Source: an uncultured delta proteobacterium (GTDB lineage: Bacteria; Desulfobacterota; Binatia; Binatales; Binataceae). Taken from it: a DNA stretch of 64,000 nt. The position numbers and the translations under genes are program-made. The notes below the pieces were generated by a model. That model saw only the letters and a list, made by a program, of their open reading frames with translations. It had not been told where the DNA came from and did not search any database. Positions 3,479-60,797 of this stretch are shown here, one piece after another. Location of the stretch: positions 320,001 to 384,000 of the forward strand of contig CAWJET010000001.1 in the NCBI GenBank assembly GCA_963842085.1, given 5' to 3'. Within the stretch, counting starts at the first letter, position 1; every line of letters begins with the position of its first letter.

Positions 3479-4939
3479 CTACACGCGACCGCGAGCTTCG
3501 CGCGTTTTCAAGCTGAGGTACAGGGTCGCGGCGTCGCCGTTTTCGCGCCGGTTCGAATTGATCCCGCGCAAACGCTCGAGCAGTTCGTGTTCGACGCTGG
3601 CCGAATGCTCCGCCGCCAGCTCGACGGCACGCGCCGCCCACCTGAGTGCGACGCGCCCCTCCAGCCCGCCGAAATCGTCGAAGAACCACGCGCAACTCGT
3701 CAGCGCCGCCTGCCCCGCACGCACCATCTCGAGCATCCTGAGCAGCGTCTCGCGGTTACCCTCGTTTTCGTCGGCAACACCGAACCGCTTGAAGGTCTCG
3801 TCATGGACGGCGGGATTCGGATCGATCAGCAGACGGATTCCACCGCGCAAAATCGCGCCGGGGTCTTTCACCAGCGCCGGCGCGAAACGATCGTAGGTCG
3901 CCTCGGCGTGGTTCTTCACGAAATCCATCGCAGCGCGTAACGGCGCGCGCCACTCCTGCGACGTGCTCGCATCGCTGCGGCATCCGCAGTTCGAGCGCCA
4001 CCGCTCGACGCCATGCGGACAACTCCACGACGTGGCCGCCGGAATCTCGAACGCCCCCGCCGCCGGATGTGTCGCCAGGTAATCCGCGCAATTCGTGACG
4101 ATCACATCGTCGCGCTGTTCGAGCGCCATCAGCGCCCGCGCCAACTCGGAAGCCCCGTGTTTATTATGATGCCCAAATGTTTCGCCGTCGGTCGCAATCA
4201 TCAGCGCGGCGCCCGGCTCCAGCTTGAGCGCCGTGTCCGCCATCCACTCCGCCAGCCGCGCGCCGTCGGCCAAGCCGTCGCCGAAAGAGACCGCACTGGA
4301 CAATTCGCGATCGAATCGAAAGACCGCCAGGCTCAATTCGCCGCTGCGCCATTGAAACGGTCCGGCACCTCGCAATTCGGCGCCCGGCCCGCGGAACTTT
4401 CCCTGGTCTGACCCGAGAATCACGAACTGGATTCCGGCCGCCGCGACCGACGCAAGCGTGTCGTCATCGGCAGCGCACTCCGGCAGCCACATCCCGGCGG
4501 GTTTGCGCCCGAAGCGGAAAACGAAATCCTCGATCCCCCAGGCGATCTGCAGCTCGCGATCGCGCGGCGGCAGGAGTGGCAAAATCGAATGACTATACGA
4601 TTGCGCGATCGCGTTGCCATGTCCGCCGTGCGCCTCGGCATACAGCGCGTCGCCGCGAGTCATCGCGCGATACGCTGCCTTGCCATGCGTTTGCAGCCAT
4701 CCCGCCAGCGTCGGCCCGACATCGAAGCTGAGGGTCTCATAGTTGTTGCGAACATGAACGACCGGCCCCGACATCGTATGGGCGTGAGCGTTGGCCGTGT
4801 AGCATTCGCTCAAAATCCGCTCGTTCCAGTTCTGAAACGGCGCCGCGCCATGCTCAGGGCTGATCAAGCCAGTCCAGGGGCTCTCGCGCGGAGGCTGATA
4901 AAAGTGCCCGTGAATTATTATGTGCCGAGGTTCGCTCAT
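3479..4939 (-). CDS. glycoside hydrolase family 57 / DUF3536 protein
   Basis: HGHFYQPPRE, GMWLPE, ATDGETFGHH, SWSCPHGVERW, TSCAWFFDD. Start moved to MSEPRH (ATG 4939). Confidence 0.85.
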   Translation of the reverse strand: MSEPRHIIIHGHFYQPPRESPWTGLISPEHGAAPFQNWNERILSECYTANAHAHTMSGPVVHVRNNYETLSFDVGPTLAGWLQTHGKAAYRAMTRGDALYAEAHGGHGNAIAQSYSHSILPLLPPRDRELQIAWGIEDFVFRFGRKPAGMWLPECAADDDTLASVAAAGIQFVILGSDQGKFRGPGAELRGAGPFQWRSGELSLAVFRFDRELSSAVSFGDGLADGARLAEWMADTALKLEPGAALMIATDGETFGHHNKHGASELARALMALEQRDDVIVTNCADYLATHPAAGAFEIPAATSWSCPHGVERWRSNCGCRSDASTSQEWRAPLRAAMDFVKNHAEATYDRFAPALVKDPGAILRGGIRLLIDPNPAVHDETFKRFGVADENEGNRETLLRMLEMVRAGQAALTSCAWFFDDFGGLEGRVALRWAARAVELAAEHSASVEHELLERLRGINSNRRENGDAATLYLSLKTREARGRV

Positions 4940-25188: not shown

Positions 25189-25270
25189 CAGAATCTTGAA
25201 TCGCGCGCGAAAAGAACGCGCGCTGTACAAAGACCCTCACCTTCATCCTCATCCCTTGCAGGGAGAGGAG
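25189..25270 (+). repeat. CCCTCACC/GGGAGAGG palindromic repeat, type A (solo copy)
   Basis: First 23 nt CAGAATCTTGAATCGCGCGCGAA identical to 54826; continues CCCTCACCTTCATCCTC...GGGAGAGG. Confidence 0.88.
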
Positions 25271-25278
25271 ACAGAAAA

Positions 25279-25316
25279 GATCCGGGATTCTTCGCCGCAG
25301 CGGCTCTGAATGACGC
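25279..25316 (-). repeat. GTCAT-type REP-like repeat
   Basis: Minus strand GCGTCATTCAGAGCCGCTGCGGCGAAGAATCCCGGATC. Confidence 0.75.
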
Positions 25317-25423: not shown

Positions 25424-26218
25424 ATGAGCGTTCAGGAACGGCATCGGCGCGAGCGGCGCGCGCGCGGGCAGGCAATCCTGACCGCGGCCGCCAAGGTCTT
25501 CGCCAGGCATGGGCTGGAAGGCGCGACGATCGAGATGATCGCGCGCGAGGCTGAAGTCGCGGTCGGCACGATCTACCTCTATTACTCGTCGCGCGACGAT
25601 CTTTACCTGAACCTTATCGCGCACCGCGCCGAACAGCTTCGCGCGCGCTACCTGGAGATTTTCGCGCGCGCGCTCGAGCCGCTGGAAGAACTCAAGACCA
25701 TCGCGTCGGCCTATCTCGACTACCTGCGCGAATCGCGCGAGATCTTTTTGTCGCAGCATTCGGTAGTGTTCTCGCAGCTCCATCAGCGCCTGCGACGCAA
25801 GTCTGAAATACGCGATTTTCAGCGGGTGATGGAGCTGAGCCACGAAATCTTCGGACTGTGGGAAGGCACCATCAGGCGCGCGTTCGAGGGCGGCGTGATC
25901 GCCAACTCGATGGGCCCGAAGAGGACCGCGGCGGTGGTCTGGGCGAGCATGAACGGCGCGTTCATGCTGATGGGCGACGGCAATTTCTTCCGCGACGTCA
26001 CCGGGCTCAACCCCGAGCATTTTCTCGACGAGGCGCTCGAATCGCATCTGGCCGCGGCGCAGTTAAGCGTACGAAGAAAAGCGAGCAGGAGCAGAATCGT
26101 GAGTCGCGCGCGAAAAATGCGCGCTGTACAAGGTCCCTCACCCGCGCCACAGCGGCGCGACCTCTCCCGGTTAAGGAGAGGGGAAACAGAAGAAGCCGCG
26201 GTGCATCCCGGCGCGTAA
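25424..26218 (+). CDS. TetR/AcrR regulator; C-terminal tail reads through a palindromic repeat
   Basis: ILTAAAKVFARHG...IAREAEVAVGTIYLYY HTH. Confidence 0.9.
   Translation: MSVQERHRRERRARGQAILTAAAKVFARHGLEGATIEMIAREAEVAVGTIYLYYSSRDDLYLNLIAHRAEQLRARYLEIFARALEPLEELKTIASAYLDYLRESREIFLSQHSVVFSQLHQRLRRKSEIRDFQRVMELSHEIFGLWEGTIRRAFEGGVIANSMGPKRTAAVVWASMNGAFMLMGDGNFFRDVTGLNPEHFLDEALESHLAAAQLSVRRKASRSRIVSRARKMRAVQGPSPAPQRRDLSRLRRGETEEAAVHPGA
26092..26186 (+). repeat. CCCTCACC/GGAGAGGGG palindromic repeat, type B (solo copy, inside tetR ORF)
   Basis: CAGAATCGTGAGTCGCGCGCGAAA...ACAAGGTCCCTCACCCG...GACCTCTCCC...GGAGAGGGGAAA matches the reverse complement of 54331-54427. Confidence 0.88.
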
Positions 26219-53339: not shown

Positions 53340-54113
53340 CTAGAGCGGCCCCGACATGCCGTCGCGCCGGATTCGCCAGAAATGCACCGCCATGAAGATG
53401 CTCGCGATCAACGGAAAAAAGATGCAGTGCAAAATGTAGAAGCGCAGCAGCGTGTGCGGCCCGATTTCCGCGCCGCCGAAAATAAATGCGCGCGCGTCGT
53501 AAATCGGATTCACTCCCAGTAATTCATGGAACGGGCCGCCATGCCCGAGCAGCGGAGTCGCGCGCGCCATGTTCGAGCCGACCGTCACTGCCCATATCGA
53601 AAGCTGATCCCACGGCAGCAGGTATCCGGTGAACGACAGCAACAGCGTCAGCACCAGCAGGATCACGCCGACCACCCAGTTGAACTCGCGCGGCGGCTTG
53701 TACGAGCCGGTCATGAACACGCGGAACATGTGCAGCCAGACCGCGATCACCATTCCGTGCGCGGCCCATCGATGCATGTTGCGCATCAGCATGCCGAACG
53801 GCATGTCGAACTCGAGGTACTTCATGTCGGCGTAGGCGTATTCCGCCGTCGGCCGGTAGTAGAACATCAGGTACACGCCGGTCACCACCGTCACCAGGAA
53901 AAGCAGAAAGGTGATGCCGCCCATGCACCAGGTGAAGCGCAGGCGCACGGTATGCTTCTGCACTTTCGACGGATGCAGATGGAGCCACACGTTGCCGGAG
54001 ACCATCAGGATCCGGTTGCGCGGCGTGTCTTCGTAGCCGTGCCTGAATATCGACTGCCAGGCCTGCGAATCGGTTATCTGGCGCTTCGTTTCGTTCCAGT
54101 CGAACTTAGCCAT
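53340..54113 (-). CDS. petB: cytochrome b6-like subunit
   Basis: WCMGG, RNMHRWAAH, HMFRVF, SFTGYLLPWDQ, RFYILH...VHFWRIR. Confidence 0.88.
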   Translation of the reverse strand: MAKFDWNETKRQITDSQAWQSIFRHGYEDTPRNRILMVSGNVWLHLHPSKVQKHTVRLRFTWCMGGITFLLFLVTVVTGVYLMFYYRPTAEYAYADMKYLEFDMPFGMLMRNMHRWAAHGMVIAVWLHMFRVFMTGSYKPPREFNWVVGVILLVLTLLLSFTGYLLPWDQLSIWAVTVGSNMARATPLLGHGGPFHELLGVNPIYDARAFIFGGAEIGPHTLLRFYILHCIFFPLIASIFMAVHFWRIRRDGMSGPL

Positions 54114-54330
54114 CCGCTACCAAACTCCCCGGAGCGGCCCGCGGGCGCTCGCAGCAATCCAAATACCGCGAAAGAGCAAAAAATTCCAACCCTTACGATT
54201 TTTGTGTTCGCAATTCTGCGCGAAATCCGGCGTAAGGCTACCTAATTTCGCCCGATCTCTGCAACAAAGAGGACTCATTGAATGAGGTATTTTGGATGTC
54301 TAGTCTCTCTCCGTCCGCCGGAGCACGTTT

Positions 54331-54427
54331 TTTCCCCTCTCCCGATGGGAGAGGTCGACGCTCGCCTGCGAGCGTCGGGTGAGGGACCTTGTTAAGCGCG
54401 CGTTTCGCGCGCGACTTACGATTTCTG
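54331..54427 (-). repeat. palindromic repeat type B, left end of the DUF559 unit
   Basis: Minus: CAGAAATCGTAAGTCGCGCGCGAAACGCGCGCTTAACAAGGTCCCTCACCCG...GACCTCTCCCATCGGGAGAGGGGAAA. Confidence 0.9.
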
Positions 54428-54476
54428 TTCTCTGCGGGCCTGGTTTTTTCCTGCGACGCTGCAAAAGTTCAGAATC

Positions 54477-54836
54477 GTGCCCTCGTCCGAAGCATCTCAC
54501 GAAACCGCTCGCAGATTGCGCCGCGAGCAAACTCCCGCCGAGCAAGTTTTATGGCGTCATCTGCGAGGCCAGCGTATGTCCAACGTGAAGTTCCGCCGCC
54601 AACATCCGATCGGCCCCTGCTTCGCCGACTTCTGCTCGATTGAACGCCGTCTGATCGTCGAACTCGATGGTGGACAGCACGCCGACCAATCCGCTGAAGA
54701 CGAAGTTCGCAGCTCCTTTCTCAACTCGTACGGCTACCGAGTCCTGCGCTTCGGGAATTACCAGGTGCTATACAACATCCGGGAAGTGCTCGACGAAATC
54801 GAAAAAGTCCTGAGCTCTGATTCTTCAGAATCTTGA
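54477..54836 (+). CDS. DUF559 (Vsr-like) endonuclease domain protein
   Basis: ARRLRREQTPAEQVLW, KFRRQHPIG..ADF, IVELDGGQH, GYRVLRF. Confidence 0.9.
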   Translation: MPSSEASHETARRLRREQTPAEQVLWRHLRGQRMSNVKFRRQHPIGPCFADFCSIERRLIVELDGGQHADQSAEDEVRSSFLNSYGYRVLRFGNYQVLYNIREVLDEIEKVLSSDSSES

Positions 54837-54908
54837 ATCGCGCGCGAAGCGAGTCGCGCGCTGAATAAGGTCCCTCACCTTCGATCCTCTCCCTCCGGGA
54901 GAGGGGAA
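54826..54908 (+). repeat. palindromic repeat type A, right end of the DUF559 unit
   Basis: CAGAATCTTGAATCGCGCGCGAA...AAGGTCCCTCACCTTCGATCCTCTCCCTCCGGGAGAGGGGAA; contains the DUF559 stop codon. Confidence 0.9.
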
Positions 54909-54920
54909 GAAAGTCCTCTC

Positions 54921-55313
54921 CTATAACTGCGGCTTGCCGGAGCCGCGGCGGAAGCGGCCGAAGAGTGCGACGATCAAGCCCCACAGCACCATCAGGATTG
55001 CGATCCCGATTACGCCGAGGCCGACACCGGCCAGAATTCCCGTCGCGCACAGCACAGCACCGATGACGAACAGCGGGATTGCGAATGCGATCGGGTTGAA
55101 CGGGTCGTTGCGCGCCGCCCGCGCGACCATCGCCGCCGCCTGCTCTGCCGTACCCGCATCTTCGTTGCTCTCTTTGAGCAGGCTCACCGCGTAGTCGGTA
55201 AGTTCCTGGCGATTGGGCATCGCGCGGAGACGGTCGGCGAGCTCTCGGGCGAGCTCCTCGACGCGTTCGTCGTTCTCCTGGGAGTCGGGGTCGGGTTTGT
55301 TCGATTCAGCCAC
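54921..55313 (-). CDS. hypothetical membrane protein
   Basis: Acidic N-terminus, two C-terminal TMs. Confidence 0.7.
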   Translation of the reverse strand: MAESNKPDPDSQENDERVEELARELADRLRAMPNRQELTDYAVSLLKESNEDAGTAEQAAAMVARAARNDPFNPIAFAIPLFVIGAVLCATGILAGVGLGVIGIAILMVLWGLIVALFGRFRRGSGKPQL

Positions 55314-60410: not shown

Positions 60411-60797
60411 CTACTTGCCCTGCTCCAGCTCCTGGCTGCGCTTCTCCATCAGCTCGCCCATTTCCTTCATCATCCGGCCGCGGATCTCCATCATCTGCGC
60501 GCGCGTCTTCGGGTCGTTCATCATCGTCTGCATCATCTGCATATCCATCATGCGGCCCGGCCCGCACATCATGCCGGGACCCATCATGCCGGGCCCGCCC
60601 ATCATGCCCGGCCCCATCTTCCCGGAGCCGCCCATCATCCCTTGCCCGCTCATCATGCCCGGTCCACCCATCATGCCCGGTCCCATTGGTTGCGATGGAG
60701 CCGGCGAACTAGCCGGCTGCCCAAATGCCAGCACCGAGGAAAGAATCAAAATACCAGTGACGCTCGCGAGACTGGCGACGAAGTGCCTGTCATTCAT
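60411..60797 (-). CDS. periplasmic Met/Gly-rich protein
   Basis: AGGAG Shine-Dalgarno, signal peptide, tandem GPGMM(G) repeats, Met-rich helix; directly upstream of copA. Confidence 0.8.
   Translation of the reverse strand: MNDRHFVASLASVTGILILSSVLAFGQPASSPAPSQPMGPGMMGGPGMMSGQGMMGGSGKMGPGMMGGPGMMGPGMMCGPGRMMDMQMMQTMMNDPKTRAQMMEIRGRMMKEMGELMEKRSQELEQGK

What the first reader, a model, noticed from the sequence alone, without database searches (positions are those of the whole stretch)
54331..54908. DUF559 nuclease bracketed by inverted palindromic ends, with solo copies of both ends: REPtron-like element without RAYT
Seen: four copies of an 80-100 bp structured repeat (CAGAATC..A.TCGCGCGCGAA..CGCGCT...AAG..CCCTCACC..CCTCTCCC..GGAGAGG). 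Type B (54331-54427, minus) and type A (54826-54908, plus) point outward around the DUF559 gene, whose stop codon lies inside the right end. Solo A (25189, first 23 nt identical) and solo B (26092, sharing ACAAGGTCCCTCACCCG and GACCTCTCCC) lie about 29 kb away. Known: REP families are spread by HUH-type RAYT transposases encoded between inverted REPs; DUF559 is a Vsr-like nuclease fold of unknown role. Inference: DUF559 may be the cognate enzyme that cuts or spreads this repeat family, with distinct left and right ends.
Basis: partly seen in the sequence, partly recalled or inferred. Interest (0 to 1): 0.8.

Follow-up and report, generated by a model that had tools for sequence, protein, structure and literature searches.

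The report
Nuclease gene framed by triplex-motif repeats
A small DNA-cutting enzyme gene (DUF559) sits between two mirrored copies of a widespread, long-unexplained bacterial repeat (the BoxC/PIT "triplex motif"), and the same pairing recurs in many bacterial groups, which suggests that this enzyme is the repeat's missing partner.

Summary
The 80-100 nt repeat has 50 copies in this 4.9 Mb genome. All 3 DUF559 genes in the genome lie between inverted copies.

Each copy has two modules. One is a genus-specific CGCGCG hairpin. The other is CCCTCACC plus a CCTCTCCC/GGGAGAGG hairpin, which is the known but unexplained BoxC/PIT/TMECO "intrastrand triplex motif".

- Flanking inverted repeats occur at 54 of 72 DUF559 loci from many phyla, against 0 of 600 random segments.
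- In three genome samples (103 genomes), all 10 genomes with at least 10 strict motif copies carry DUF559.
- Related species show occupied sites, empty sites and single-hairpin sites at the window's locus.
- One orthologous pair has the gene inverted between its repeats.
- Gene-less repeat doublets share the gene's extended ends.
- The genome's own RAYT has a different, private REP family.

The most likely reading is a REP-RAYT-like system run by a Vsr-like PD-(D/E)xK nuclease. No cleavage or mobilisation has been shown. Some genomes, including about 2,000 E. coli, keep motifs without a detectable DUF559. I found no paper that links DUF559 to this motif. The A/B "left versus right end" idea is not supported.

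The parts
54331..54427 (-). Left (upstream) arm, 'type B' unit in inverted orientation. It comprises the distal hairpin CCTCTCCC/GGGAGAGG (54336-54343 / 54347-54354), an inserted GC hairpin (54356-54364 / 54369-54377), the box GGTGAGGG (54378-54385), and the CGCGCG hairpin of module 1 (about 54396-54418). The inner end is at 54427.
   Evidence: (I10, I25). DNA fold -31.5 kcal/mol, z -5.7.
54477..54836 (+). DUF559 gene, 119 aa, GTG start. It encodes a Vsr-like PD-(D/E)xK endonuclease. All 12 residues that are invariant in 107 homologues are kept. It has G at position 93, where 96% have W, and C at position 48, where its close relatives have Y.
   Evidence: Pfam PF04480 4.5e-38. PDB 3hrl 5e-26. 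Conservation. dN/dS 0.09-0.26 against 10 close relatives.
54826..54908 (+). Right (downstream) arm, 'type A' unit. It comprises the module-1 CGCGCG hairpin (54838-54864), the box CCCTCACC (54872-54879) and the distal hairpin CCTCTCCC/GGGAGAGG (54886-54893 / 54897-54904). The first 11 nt encode the last residues and the stop codon of DUF559.
   Evidence: best hit, E 8e-24. Fold z -4.1. The other copies share a sharp 5' boundary at CAGAATC.
25189..25272 (+). Solo type-A unit, downstream of a glyoxalase-like ORF. It is one of about 47 solo copies in the genome.
26092..26186 (+). Solo type-B unit between a TetR gene and an LLM-type oxidoreductase gene. The TetR reading frame runs into it. In relatives the same site holds type A, type B, module 1 alone, two motifs or nothing.

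Best explanation
Window 54331-54908 is one unit of a nuclease-and-repeat system. A small Vsr-like PD-(D/E)xK endonuclease gene (DUF559) is bracketed by inverted copies of its own dispersed repeat. The core of that repeat is the BoxC/PIT/TMECO 'intrastrand triplex motif': the box CCCTCACC plus the hairpin CCTCTCCC-loop-GGGAGAGG.

I propose that DUF559 is the cognate enzyme of this motif, as RAYT is for REP/REPIN. It would recognise the motif in a folded single strand, with the box packed against the hairpin, and cut there. Break repair and copying would then create, delete, invert and homogenise motif copies. That would yield the tens of solo and doublet copies and the reported instability at such sites.

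Shown: the architecture, its generality, the pairing of repeat family with gene lineage, co-occurrence, gain and loss, inversion, and a constraint on the folded structure.

Inferred: binding, cleavage, and any causal role in spreading the repeat.
For: 1. Flanking in this genome. All 3 DUF559 genes lie between inverted units with the box towards the gene and the hairpin outward. Of 4 divergent motif pairs within 2.5 kb, 3 enclose DUF559.
2. Generality. The upstream and downstream 300 nt align as inverted repeats (score >=36) at 22 of 28 genus/class loci and at 54 of 72 loci from alpha-, beta- and gammaproteobacteria, Nitrospira, Bacteroidota, Dehalococcoidia and others. Controls gave 0 of 600 random segments and 2 of 137 shifted positions. 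100 of 110 loci have a motif module within 250 nt, and 56 have the canonical arrangement on both sides.
3. Cognate pairs. DUF559 #1 and #2 carry the 50-copy family. DUF559 #3 (43% identity) carries a second family of 18 copies. Own arms are the best match in 13 of 28 loci.
4. Co-occurrence over 103 genomes in three samples: both 19, DUF559 only 10, motif only 8, neither 66. All 10 genomes with >=10 strict copies have DUF559.
5. Dynamics. Relatives show occupied, empty and single-hairpin sites at the window's locus. The interior is inverted between the same arms and flanks in G003 versus G016. Paralogues in G010 are 81-88% identical only within the 490-670 bp unit.
6. Gene-less doublets in G110 share the extended ends of the resident DUF559 unit.
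7. Fold constraint. The box-hairpin spacer is 0-6 nt in 97 arms and never 7-13 nt. When it is >=14 nt (64 arms), it is itself a significant hairpin in 47.
8. The protein is under purifying selection.
9. [quoted passage not shown] The authors suggest it may cause double-strand breaks.
10. In passages read in PMC4666352, the authors state that they never found remnants of transposases or integrases around the sites. The word 'endonuclease' occurs 0 times in the main text.
Against: - No cleavage, binding or movement has been observed.
- A hydrolytic nuclease cannot rejoin DNA, so any copying step must rely on host repair and is undefined.
- I found no target-site duplication.
- Motifs persist without a detectable DUF559. 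There are 8 'motif only' genomes with 1-6 copies each. In the family-of-G064 sample the 2x2 table is weak (3, 2, 5, 16).
- All 5426 complete E. coli genomes match a motif query, but only 3378 have ycjD.
- 10 genomes have DUF559 but no strict-pattern motif. Some of these carry variant motifs, but I did not check all.
- Related genomes are not independent, many are incomplete MAGs, and the strict pattern misses variants.
- DUF559 paralogues within this genome are old (43-64% identity), so there is no sign of recent movement here.
- The window's copy has G for the 96%-conserved W93.
- Laying metagenome contigs on the locus showed no inversion or excision within a population.
Confidence: 0.55

Rival explanations
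1. Homing-type selfish gene. DUF559 is a site-specific endonuclease that cuts the palindromic hairpin, or an empty inverted motif doublet. It copies itself in by break repair from an occupied copy. The motifs would be its targets and would be spread by something else.
For: - Relatives with an empty site keep a single hairpin whose outer arms are both extended. This looks like a target or a scar (L114, L115, L118).
- Empty divergent doublets exist in G110 and in E. coli K-12, which has 5 tandem inverted pairs (Table 1 of PMC4666352).
- The Vsr/DUF559 fold includes a known homing endonuclease family (passages in PMC3424549 and PMC9403480).
- Motifs persist without DUF559 in 8 of 103 sampled genomes and in about 2,000 E. 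coli genomes.
Against: - Both flanks of an occupied site keep complete hairpins, so the presumed site is not disrupted.
- The homology available at a hairpin is only about 12-25 nt.
- No genome with >=10 copies lacks DUF559, whereas targets should often outlive a homing gene.
- The rival does not explain what multiplies the motifs.
Confidence: 0.2
2. Passenger gene. The motif units are MITE-like elements moved by an unknown enzyme or by host recombination. DUF559 is merely a frequent cargo caught between two of them.
For: - Motif units come and go on their own as ~50-nt indels next to module 1.
- One divergent pair in this genome encloses an unrelated 183-aa ORF.
Against: - DUF559 is the recurrent gene between such pairs across phyla.
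- Its arms match its own lineage's repeat family.
- The authors of PMC4666352 found no remnants of transposases or integrases near motif sites.
- The genome's RAYT has other repeats.
Confidence: 0.1
3. Housekeeping or regulatory role. DUF559 is a Vsr-like mismatch or structure-repair nuclease. The inverted repeats would only regulate it, as terminators, insulators, or an invertible on/off switch.
For: - Caulobacter VsrA, a DUF559 protein, is functionally tied to a cytosine methylase (PMC12907096 passages).
- DUF559 is enriched among predicted programmed-inversion targets, with odds ratio 14.3 (table row in PMC9881135).
- There is one real inversion between species.
Against: - This 100%-complete genome has no PF00145 cytosine-5 methylase and no canonical Vsr.
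- The arms are not terminator-like and no promoter-like site was found.
- A purely regulatory role does not explain 30-90 solo copies per genome or their co-occurrence with the gene.
- No recombinase gene lies beside the unit. Its neighbours are a cytochrome b gene and a small membrane protein gene.
- At the window's locus, all 6 occupied orthologues have the same orientation.
Confidence: 0.1

Closest known systems
BoxC / PIT / TMECO intrastrand triplex motif (Holder et al. 2015, PMC4666352; earlier work by Hoyne and Maher cited there)
   Same: It has the same three blocks: a C-rich arm, its G-rich complement, and a second G-rich block (GGTGAGGG). It also has the same recurrent stem mismatch (the GGGCGAGG variant, found in 22 of 161 arms here, which equals the paper's 'A mm' type). 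It shares the dispersed intergenic copies, the inverted pairs and the local instability.
   Different: Here the motif is fused to a genus-specific CGCGCG hairpin, the stems are 8 nt, and the second loop is 6 nt or a whole inserted hairpin. It also frames a DUF559 gene. In the passages I read, the authors state that they never found remnants of transposases or integrases around the sites. Within the main text, 'endonuclease' occurs 0 times.
REP/REPIN with RAYT (REPtron)
   Same: A small nuclease gene lies between inverted copies of a structured repeat that is also dispersed as singlets and doublets, and repeat abundance is tied to presence of the gene. This genome holds a true example for comparison: a 147-aa RAYT between its own REPs.
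   Different: The enzyme is a hydrolytic PD-(D/E)xK nuclease, not an HUH tyrosine transposase. The gene occurs in 1-10 copies per genome in this genus. The repeat core is conserved across phyla rather than being specific to a lineage.
DUF559 / Vsr-like endonucleases (E. coli YcjD, Caulobacter VsrA, PDB 3hrl)
   Same: The family and conserved residues are the same. E. coli ycjD also has a degenerate motif across its stop codon and TMECO no. 9 about 170 nt downstream.
   Different: No cytosine-5 methylase partner exists in this genome. In E. coli ycjD is single-copy and fixed in place.
Vsr-fold homing endonucleases (EDxHD family, I-Bth0305I)
   Same: It has a related fold, it is a free-standing small nuclease gene, and it shows occupied/empty polymorphism.
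   Different: It is not inside an intron, an intein or a conserved host gene. It is bracketed by complete inverted repeats.
MITEs and their autonomous transposons
   Same: It has terminal inverted repeats, and short gene-less derivatives share the ends.
   Different: There is no transposase of a known class and no target-site duplication was seen. Most copies are single ends, not pairs.

Membership tests
DUF559 (PF04480), Vsr-like PD-(D/E)xK nucleases | Profile match above the curated cut-off | tested here: met
   129.9 bits against a cut-off of 20.6, E 4.5e-38. PDB 3hrl E 5e-26.
DUF559 (PF04480), Vsr-like PD-(D/E)xK nucleases | Conserved acidic and histidine core (D51, E62-x-D64, H68) and the other invariant residues | tested here: met
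   All 12 residues invariant in 107 sequences are present. W93, conserved in 96%, is G here.
BoxC/PIT/TMECO triplex motif | Three blocks in order: C-rich arm, complementary G-rich arm, second G-rich block | tested here: met
   The blocks CCTCTCCC, GGGAGAGG and GGTGAGGG are present in all four window copies.
BoxC/PIT/TMECO triplex motif | Published consensus spacing: 9-nt stems, loop 1 of 3-6 nt, loop 2 of 3 nt (PMC4666352, section read) | tested here: not met
   Stems are 8 nt. Loop 2 is 6 nt in type A and a 22-nt hairpin in type B. This makes it a variant of the motif. Many other DUF559 loci do fit the strict form.
BoxC/PIT/TMECO triplex motif | Formation of an intrastrand triplex | not testable with these tools
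   There is only indirect support. The spacer is either <=6 nt or a self-folding hairpin.
REPtron (RAYT with REPs) | Gene encodes an HUH Y1 transposase (PF01797) | tested here: not met
   The gene is DUF559. The only PF01797 hit in the genome is elsewhere, at C1:1118947-1119174.
REPtron (RAYT with REPs) | Gene flanked by inverted copies of a repeat that is dispersed in the same genome | tested here: met
REPtron (RAYT with REPs) | Single-copy, vertically inherited gene | tested here: inconclusive
   The gene has 1-10 copies per genome in this genus. It is single and fixed in E. coli. The window's locus is shared by several species and lost in others.
Homing endonuclease gene | Occupied and empty alleles of one site | tested here: met
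   Both anchor genes were found in 16 orthologous loci. 3 hold DUF559 and 9 are short without it; of those 9, 3 keep one hairpin. 4 hold other sequence.
Homing endonuclease gene | Recognition site spans the insertion point and is disrupted by the insert | not testable with these tools
   This needs cleavage mapping. Both flanks keep full hairpins.
Insertion sequence / DNA transposon | Terminal inverted repeats, target-site duplication and a transposase | tested here: not met
   Inverted repeats are present. No duplication was seen at the occupied/empty comparison, and there is no transposase domain.
Very-short-patch repair (Vsr with Dcm-type methylase) | A cytosine-5 methylase in the genome or beside the gene | tested here: not met
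   PF00145 gave 0 hits and PF03852 gave 0 hits in this 100%-complete genome.
Programmed invertible switch | Both orientations present, with a dedicated recombinase | tested here: inconclusive
   There is one inversion between species. None was seen in contigs of 4 metagenome runs. No recombinase ORF lies beside the unit.

The most novel reading that the evidence does not exclude
DUF559 is the long-missing enzyme of the BoxC/PIT triplex motifs throughout bacteria. It would be a hydrolytic nuclease that reads a folded single-stranded three-block structure and multiplies it through break-induced copying. More broadly, small stand-alone nucleases of several folds would each keep a private family of structured repeats. 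In this one genome RAYT, DUF559 and small GIY-YIG genes are each framed by their own repeats.
Probability: 0.3. Interest if true: 0.9.

Novelty: new variant of a known kind. Interest (0 to 1): 0.82.

Why it matters
According to the one paper I read on them (PMC4666352), BoxC/PIT/TMECO motifs have been known since the 1990s. That paper reports 3,610 copies in 262 proteobacterial genomes and a link to local genome instability. It names no function and no associated enzyme.

DUF559 is a very common nuclease family whose role is unknown. Linking the two makes both questions testable at once, even in E. coli K-12, using ycjD and its 23 motifs. If the link is causal, it would add a second REP-RAYT-like system, built on a different enzyme class. 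It would also explain why DUF559 genes appear as 'programmed inversion' targets and why annotators see odd N- and C-terminal extensions on them.

Tried and rejected
- **Rfam whalefall-1 (RF01762).** It matched 54333-54386 at 30.4 bits, below its cut-off of 37. It gave no match at E<=0.01 in 16 other DUF559 loci, so I treat it as a chance or partial resemblance.
- **G-T wobble and the folding strand.** I first read the recurrent stem irregularity as a G-T wobble that would reveal which strand folds. Counting showed it is a T-C mismatch (22 of 161 arms), which gives no strand information.
- **Solo copies as truncated gene ends.** I tested whether solo copies are variably truncated 3' ends of DUF559 units. 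They are not: 47 of 48 start within 188-198 of the query, at CAGAATC, with no homology into the coding region.
- **Metagenome contigs.** I laid contigs from 4 runs on 53900-55300. The 'skips 661' and 'opposite strands' joints each rest on one contig of a divergent relative. They fit an empty site and a type-A left arm in relatives, and they are not evidence of excision or inversion in this organism.
- **Orthologues of a younger paralogue.** The search with L144 gave only a left-flank match and a repeated right flank, so no clean empty site emerged.
- **Promoter scan.** No promoter-like site was found in 54200-55000.
- **Not attempted.** I did not predict the structure, because a solved homologue exists, and I did not run a complex prediction.
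Full report
**What is at the site**

Window 54477-54836 (+) encodes a 119-aa protein that matches Pfam DUF559 (PF04480) at 129.9 bits, E 4.5e-38. It also matches the solved 'endonuclease-like protein' 3hrl at E 5e-26. A 97-nt structured unit lies upstream on the minus strand (54331-54427). An 83-nt unit lies downstream on the plus strand (54826-54908). The gene's last codons and its TGA stop lie inside the downstream unit. Two further units lie at 25189 and 26092, on either side of a TetR gene. As single-stranded DNA the units fold into two or three hairpins, with z-scores of -3.4 to -5.7.

**The repeat family in the whole genome**

The window is C1:320001-384000 of a two-contig, 4.93 Mb genome. 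A profile built from the four copies finds 50 hits at E<1e-3, of which 47 are below 1e-9.

tblastn finds three DUF559 genes. All three are bracketed by inverted units, with the CCCCTCACC-type box towards the gene and the CCTCTCCC/GGGAGAGG hairpin outward. The third gene is 43% identical to the window's. Its arms belong to a second family, which lacks the CGCGCG hairpin and has a long-loop distal hairpin. That family has 18 copies in the genome, including these two arms.

With 65 relaxed modules in the genome, 0.02 would be expected in the six 250-nt flanks. Of four divergent module pairs within 2.5 kb, three enclose DUF559 and one encloses an unrelated 183-aa ORF.

**The RAYT test**

The genome has one PF01797 hit, a 147-aa RAYT-like ORF. 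It is framed by its own 26-41-nt palindromic repeats. Those repeats have four copies, all at that locus, and none lies near the DUF559 repeats. So a RAYT exists, but it does not own this repeat family.

**The repeat is modular, and A/B are not left/right ends**

I compared the orthologous TetR-oxidoreductase junction in 20 genomes of the genus:

| State of the site | Genomes |
|---|---|
| Type B | 4 |
| Type A | 10 |
| Two motif modules | 1 |
| CGCGCG hairpin module only | 2 |
| Nothing | 3 |

The unit is therefore a genus-specific module 1 plus a motif module of about 50 nt that comes and goes. Type B is type A with a GC hairpin inserted between the box and the distal hairpin. In most DUF559 loci both arms are of the same type. 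Of the 48 other copies, 47 begin within ten positions of CAGAATC. This is a discrete boundary rather than variable truncation.

**Generality**

PF04480 is found in 22 of 24 other genomes of the genus, with 1-10 matches each. I aligned the reverse complement of the 300 nt upstream against the 300 nt downstream:

| Set | Loci or segments with score >=36 |
|---|---|
| Genus/class loci with full flanks | 22 of 28 |
| Loci from named public genomes (alpha-, beta-, gammaproteobacteria, Nitrospira, Bacteroidota, Dehalococcoidia, Terriglobia and others) | 54 of 72 |
| Random segments of this genome | 0 of 600 |
| Positions shifted by 750 nt | 2 of 137 |

A regular expression for box plus hairpin finds a module within 250 nt in 100 of 110 loci. 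The arrangement is canonical on both sides in 56 and flipped on both sides in 8.

The variable parts of the arms agree within a locus and differ between loci. Own arms are the best match in 13 of 28 loci, and in 8 of the other 15 only one or two other loci match as well.

**The motif is already known, but without an enzyme**

A literature search with the two motif words led to Holder et al. 2015 (PMC4666352). I read its abstract, sections 12, 15 and 16, and passages. The three-block motif is their TMECO, earlier called BoxC and PIT.

- It occurs 23 times in E. coli K-12, and 3,610 times in 262 proteobacterial genomes.
- It forms a triplex in vitro.
- It marks unusually variable loci.
- It has no assigned function.
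- The authors state that they never found remnants of transposases or integrases around the sites.
- The word 'endonuclease' does not occur in the main text.

Their most frequent 'A mm' type carries the same stem mismatch that I count in 22 of 161 arms.

In K-12 the sole DUF559 gene, ycjD, has a degenerate motif across its stop codon. A remnant of a DUF559 3' end follows it, and TMECO no. 9 lies about 170 nt downstream. According to passages in PMC12817139, ycjD sits where the eefRABCD operon lies in other E. coli lineages. The authors infer at least two independent losses of the operon.

**Is the link in print?**

- 'DUF559': 25 papers. I saw listings, and passages from five of them.
- 'ycjD': 21 papers.
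- 'intrastrand triplex' + 'bacteria': 20 papers.
- 'potential intrastrand triplex': 6 papers.
- 'BoxC' + repeat + E. coli + intergenic: 18 papers.
- 'repetitive extragenic palindromic' + 'Vsr': 0 papers.

Searches cover these searches. In the listings and passages I saw, no paper connects the gene family with the motif. The nearest hint is one table row in PMC9881135, which lists DUF559 proteins as enriched (odds ratio 14.3) among predicted programmed-inversion targets. The J Mol Biol papers by Hoyne and Maher, the 1990s BoxC papers and all supplements were not read.

**Co-occurrence**

I searched the strict pattern (box, 2-32 nt, hairpin with a 3-9-nt loop) in the same genome draws as PF04480. 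The reversed-pattern control gave 0 in every genome.

| Sample | Both | DUF559 only | Motif only | Neither |
|---|---|---|---|---|
| Own class, outside the genus (16 genomes) | 3 (47, 27, 89 copies) | 1 | 0 | 12 |
| Order around a Dyella genome (61) | 13 | 7 | 3 (1, 1, 2 copies) | 38 |
| Family around G064 (26) | 3 | 2 | 5 (2-6 copies) | 16 |
| Total (103) | 19 | 10 | 8 | 66 |

In the Dyella sample, all 11 genomes with >=3 copies have DUF559. In the G064 sample, the only high-copy genome (30 copies) has DUF559. The overall crude odds ratio is about 16. All 10 genomes with >=10 copies have DUF559.

The third sample taken alone is weak. Kinship is not corrected for, many genomes are MAGs, and the strict pattern misses variant motifs. 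For example, G010 has 7 DUF559 genes but carries the mismatch variant and scores 0.

Within the genus, G015 has neither gene nor motif. G023 has 5 motifs and no DUF559 hit, but it is unpublished, 89% complete and in 560 contigs.

**E. coli as a counter-check**

ycjD is found in 3378 of 5426 complete genomes, as a single copy in nearly all of them (median 1, maximum 2 places). A 73-nt query spanning TMECO no. 9 matches all 5426 genomes, with a median of 15 places.

I took an evenly spaced sample of 60 rows and set aside one plasmid. The 37 chromosomes that match the full query (a proxy for the ycjD locus) have 12-26 places. The 22 that do not have 1-15 places.

Motifs therefore persist without ycjD, and their number is lower there. 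This contrast follows the E. coli phylogroups and is confounded by them.

**Gain, loss and inversion**

I fetched 30 orthologous loci of the window's right-hand neighbour. In 16 of them both that gene and the cytochrome b gene were found.

- 3 hold DUF559 (G000, G001, G004). The G001 copy is disrupted in its N-terminal part. A fourth locus, G049, holds DUF559 next to the neighbour gene, and two public MAGs hold DUF559 beside the same cytochrome b gene.
- 9 have a short spacer of 191-287 nt without the gene.
- 4 hold other sequence.

Of the 9 short sites, 3 keep one lone hairpin, and 2 of those have both outer arms extended. One has degenerate remnants and five have nothing. One of the three hairpin-only sites (L115) is from the unpublished genome G023.

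The distal hairpin is a palindrome, so the two arms are also direct repeats at that point. A lone hairpin can therefore be either a deletion scar or a target.

At another locus, G003 and G016 share the flanks (87% identical) and the arms. The 570-nt interior is reversed, at 80% identity.

In G010, three paralogues at different sites are 81-88% identical only across the 490-670-nt unit.

In G110, nine fetched divergent doublets without a gene share about 15 further nucleotides beyond the motif with the ends of a resident DUF559 unit. This is what non-autonomous derivatives would look like.

**A structural constraint**

Across 161 arms, the spacer between the box and the hairpin has two length classes:

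| Spacer length | Arms |
|---|---|
| 0-6 nt | 97 |
| 7-13 nt | 0 |
| >=14 nt | 64 |

Of the 64 long spacers, 47 fold better than 95% of shuffles. Their stems differ between lineages and between the two arms of closely related loci, but pairing is kept. An insertion is apparently tolerated only if it folds away and leaves the box next to the hairpin.

This points to recognition of a folded single strand. It fits the triplex idea but does not prove it. 123 of 161 distal stems are perfect 8-bp helices, despite sequence variants such as CCTCCTCC or CCCCTCCC.

**The protein**

Twelve residues are invariant in 107 homologues, including D51, E62, D64 and H68, and the window's protein keeps all of them. 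It has G where 96% have W (position 93) and C where its close relatives have Y (position 48).

dN/dS against ten close relatives is 0.09-0.26. The genome has no cytosine-5 methylase (PF00145) and no canonical Vsr (PF03852). This argues against a classical very-short-patch repair role.

Passages in PMC12907096 report that a Caulobacter DUF559 protein is fully responsible for an SOS response when a methylase is missing. DUF559 proteins can therefore damage DNA in vivo.

**Reading**

The best-supported explanation is a nuclease-and-repeat partnership of the REP-RAYT kind, built on a PD-(D/E)xK nuclease and the BoxC/PIT motif. I hold the association itself to be near certain. I put the causal claim, that DUF559 recognises and cuts the folded motif and thereby drives its multiplication and turnover, at about 0.55.

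The main rival is homing of the gene into hairpins or doublets that something else spreads (0.2). After that come a passenger-gene reading and a repair or regulatory reading (0.1 each). None of these can be settled without cleavage assays.

**Claims that rest partly on unpublished genomes**

G018 contributes locus L017 and counts. G023 contributes locus L115 and counts. Removing them does not change any conclusion.

Noticed in passing
window 25273-25312; own genome C1:820962-821078 and C1:167033-167245 (L211, L207): A second dispersed repeat (GTCATTCAGAGC ... GAATCCCGG type) follows several solo units. One 12-mer of it occurs 35 times in the genome, and a related 11-mer occurs 82 times. Two small GIY-YIG nuclease ORFs are themselves bracketed by inverted copies of it. 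So this genome has three nuclease classes (RAYT, DUF559, GIY-YIG), each framed by its own repeats.
   Followed up: partly
own genome C1:1118797-1119240 (L001 1273-1917): A 147-aa RAYT-like ORF lies between inverted 26-41-nt palindromic REPs. Only 4 copies of that REP exist, all at this locus, so this REP family has not spread.
   Followed up: yes
window 25424-26218: The TetR reading frame has no stop before the solo type-B unit and runs through it. This adds about 45 residues encoded by the repeat. The repeat insertion seems to have altered the C-terminus.
   Followed up: no
own genome, e.g. C2:551678-551900, C1:1724560-1724790, C1:810480-810700; also downstream of DUF559 #2 at C2:104640-104730: Some solo units sit inside a longer element that has its own inverted ends (a short CTCTCC hairpin plus a GCAAAG-containing stretch). 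The repeats are nested mosaics, like BIMEs.
   Followed up: no
L036 1992-2114; E. coli K-12 L174 about 4290-4365 (minus strand): Partial 3'-terminal DUF559 fragments (41 aa in L036, about 50 nt in E. coli) lie just downstream of intact DUF559 genes, next to motif copies.
   Followed up: partly
arms of DUF559 loci in many phyla and E. coli TMECO 'A mm' type: The same single stem mismatch recurs from E. coli to this soil genome. It pairs the T of CCTCTCCC with the C of GGGCGAGG, and accounts for 22 of the 38 imperfect stems. No explanation so far accounts for it.
   Followed up: partly
window 60549-60686: A run of 18- and 33-nt tandem repeats (CATCATGCC(C/G)GG type) lies in coding-like sequence. 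I did not examine it.
   Followed up: no
L130, L131, L135 (orthologues of the window's cytochrome b - membrane protein spacer): In some relatives the same spacer is filled by a different palindromic repeat (GGGTGCAGGG...CCCCTGC type) instead of the DUF559 unit. This intergenic site seems to attract repeats.
   Followed up: no
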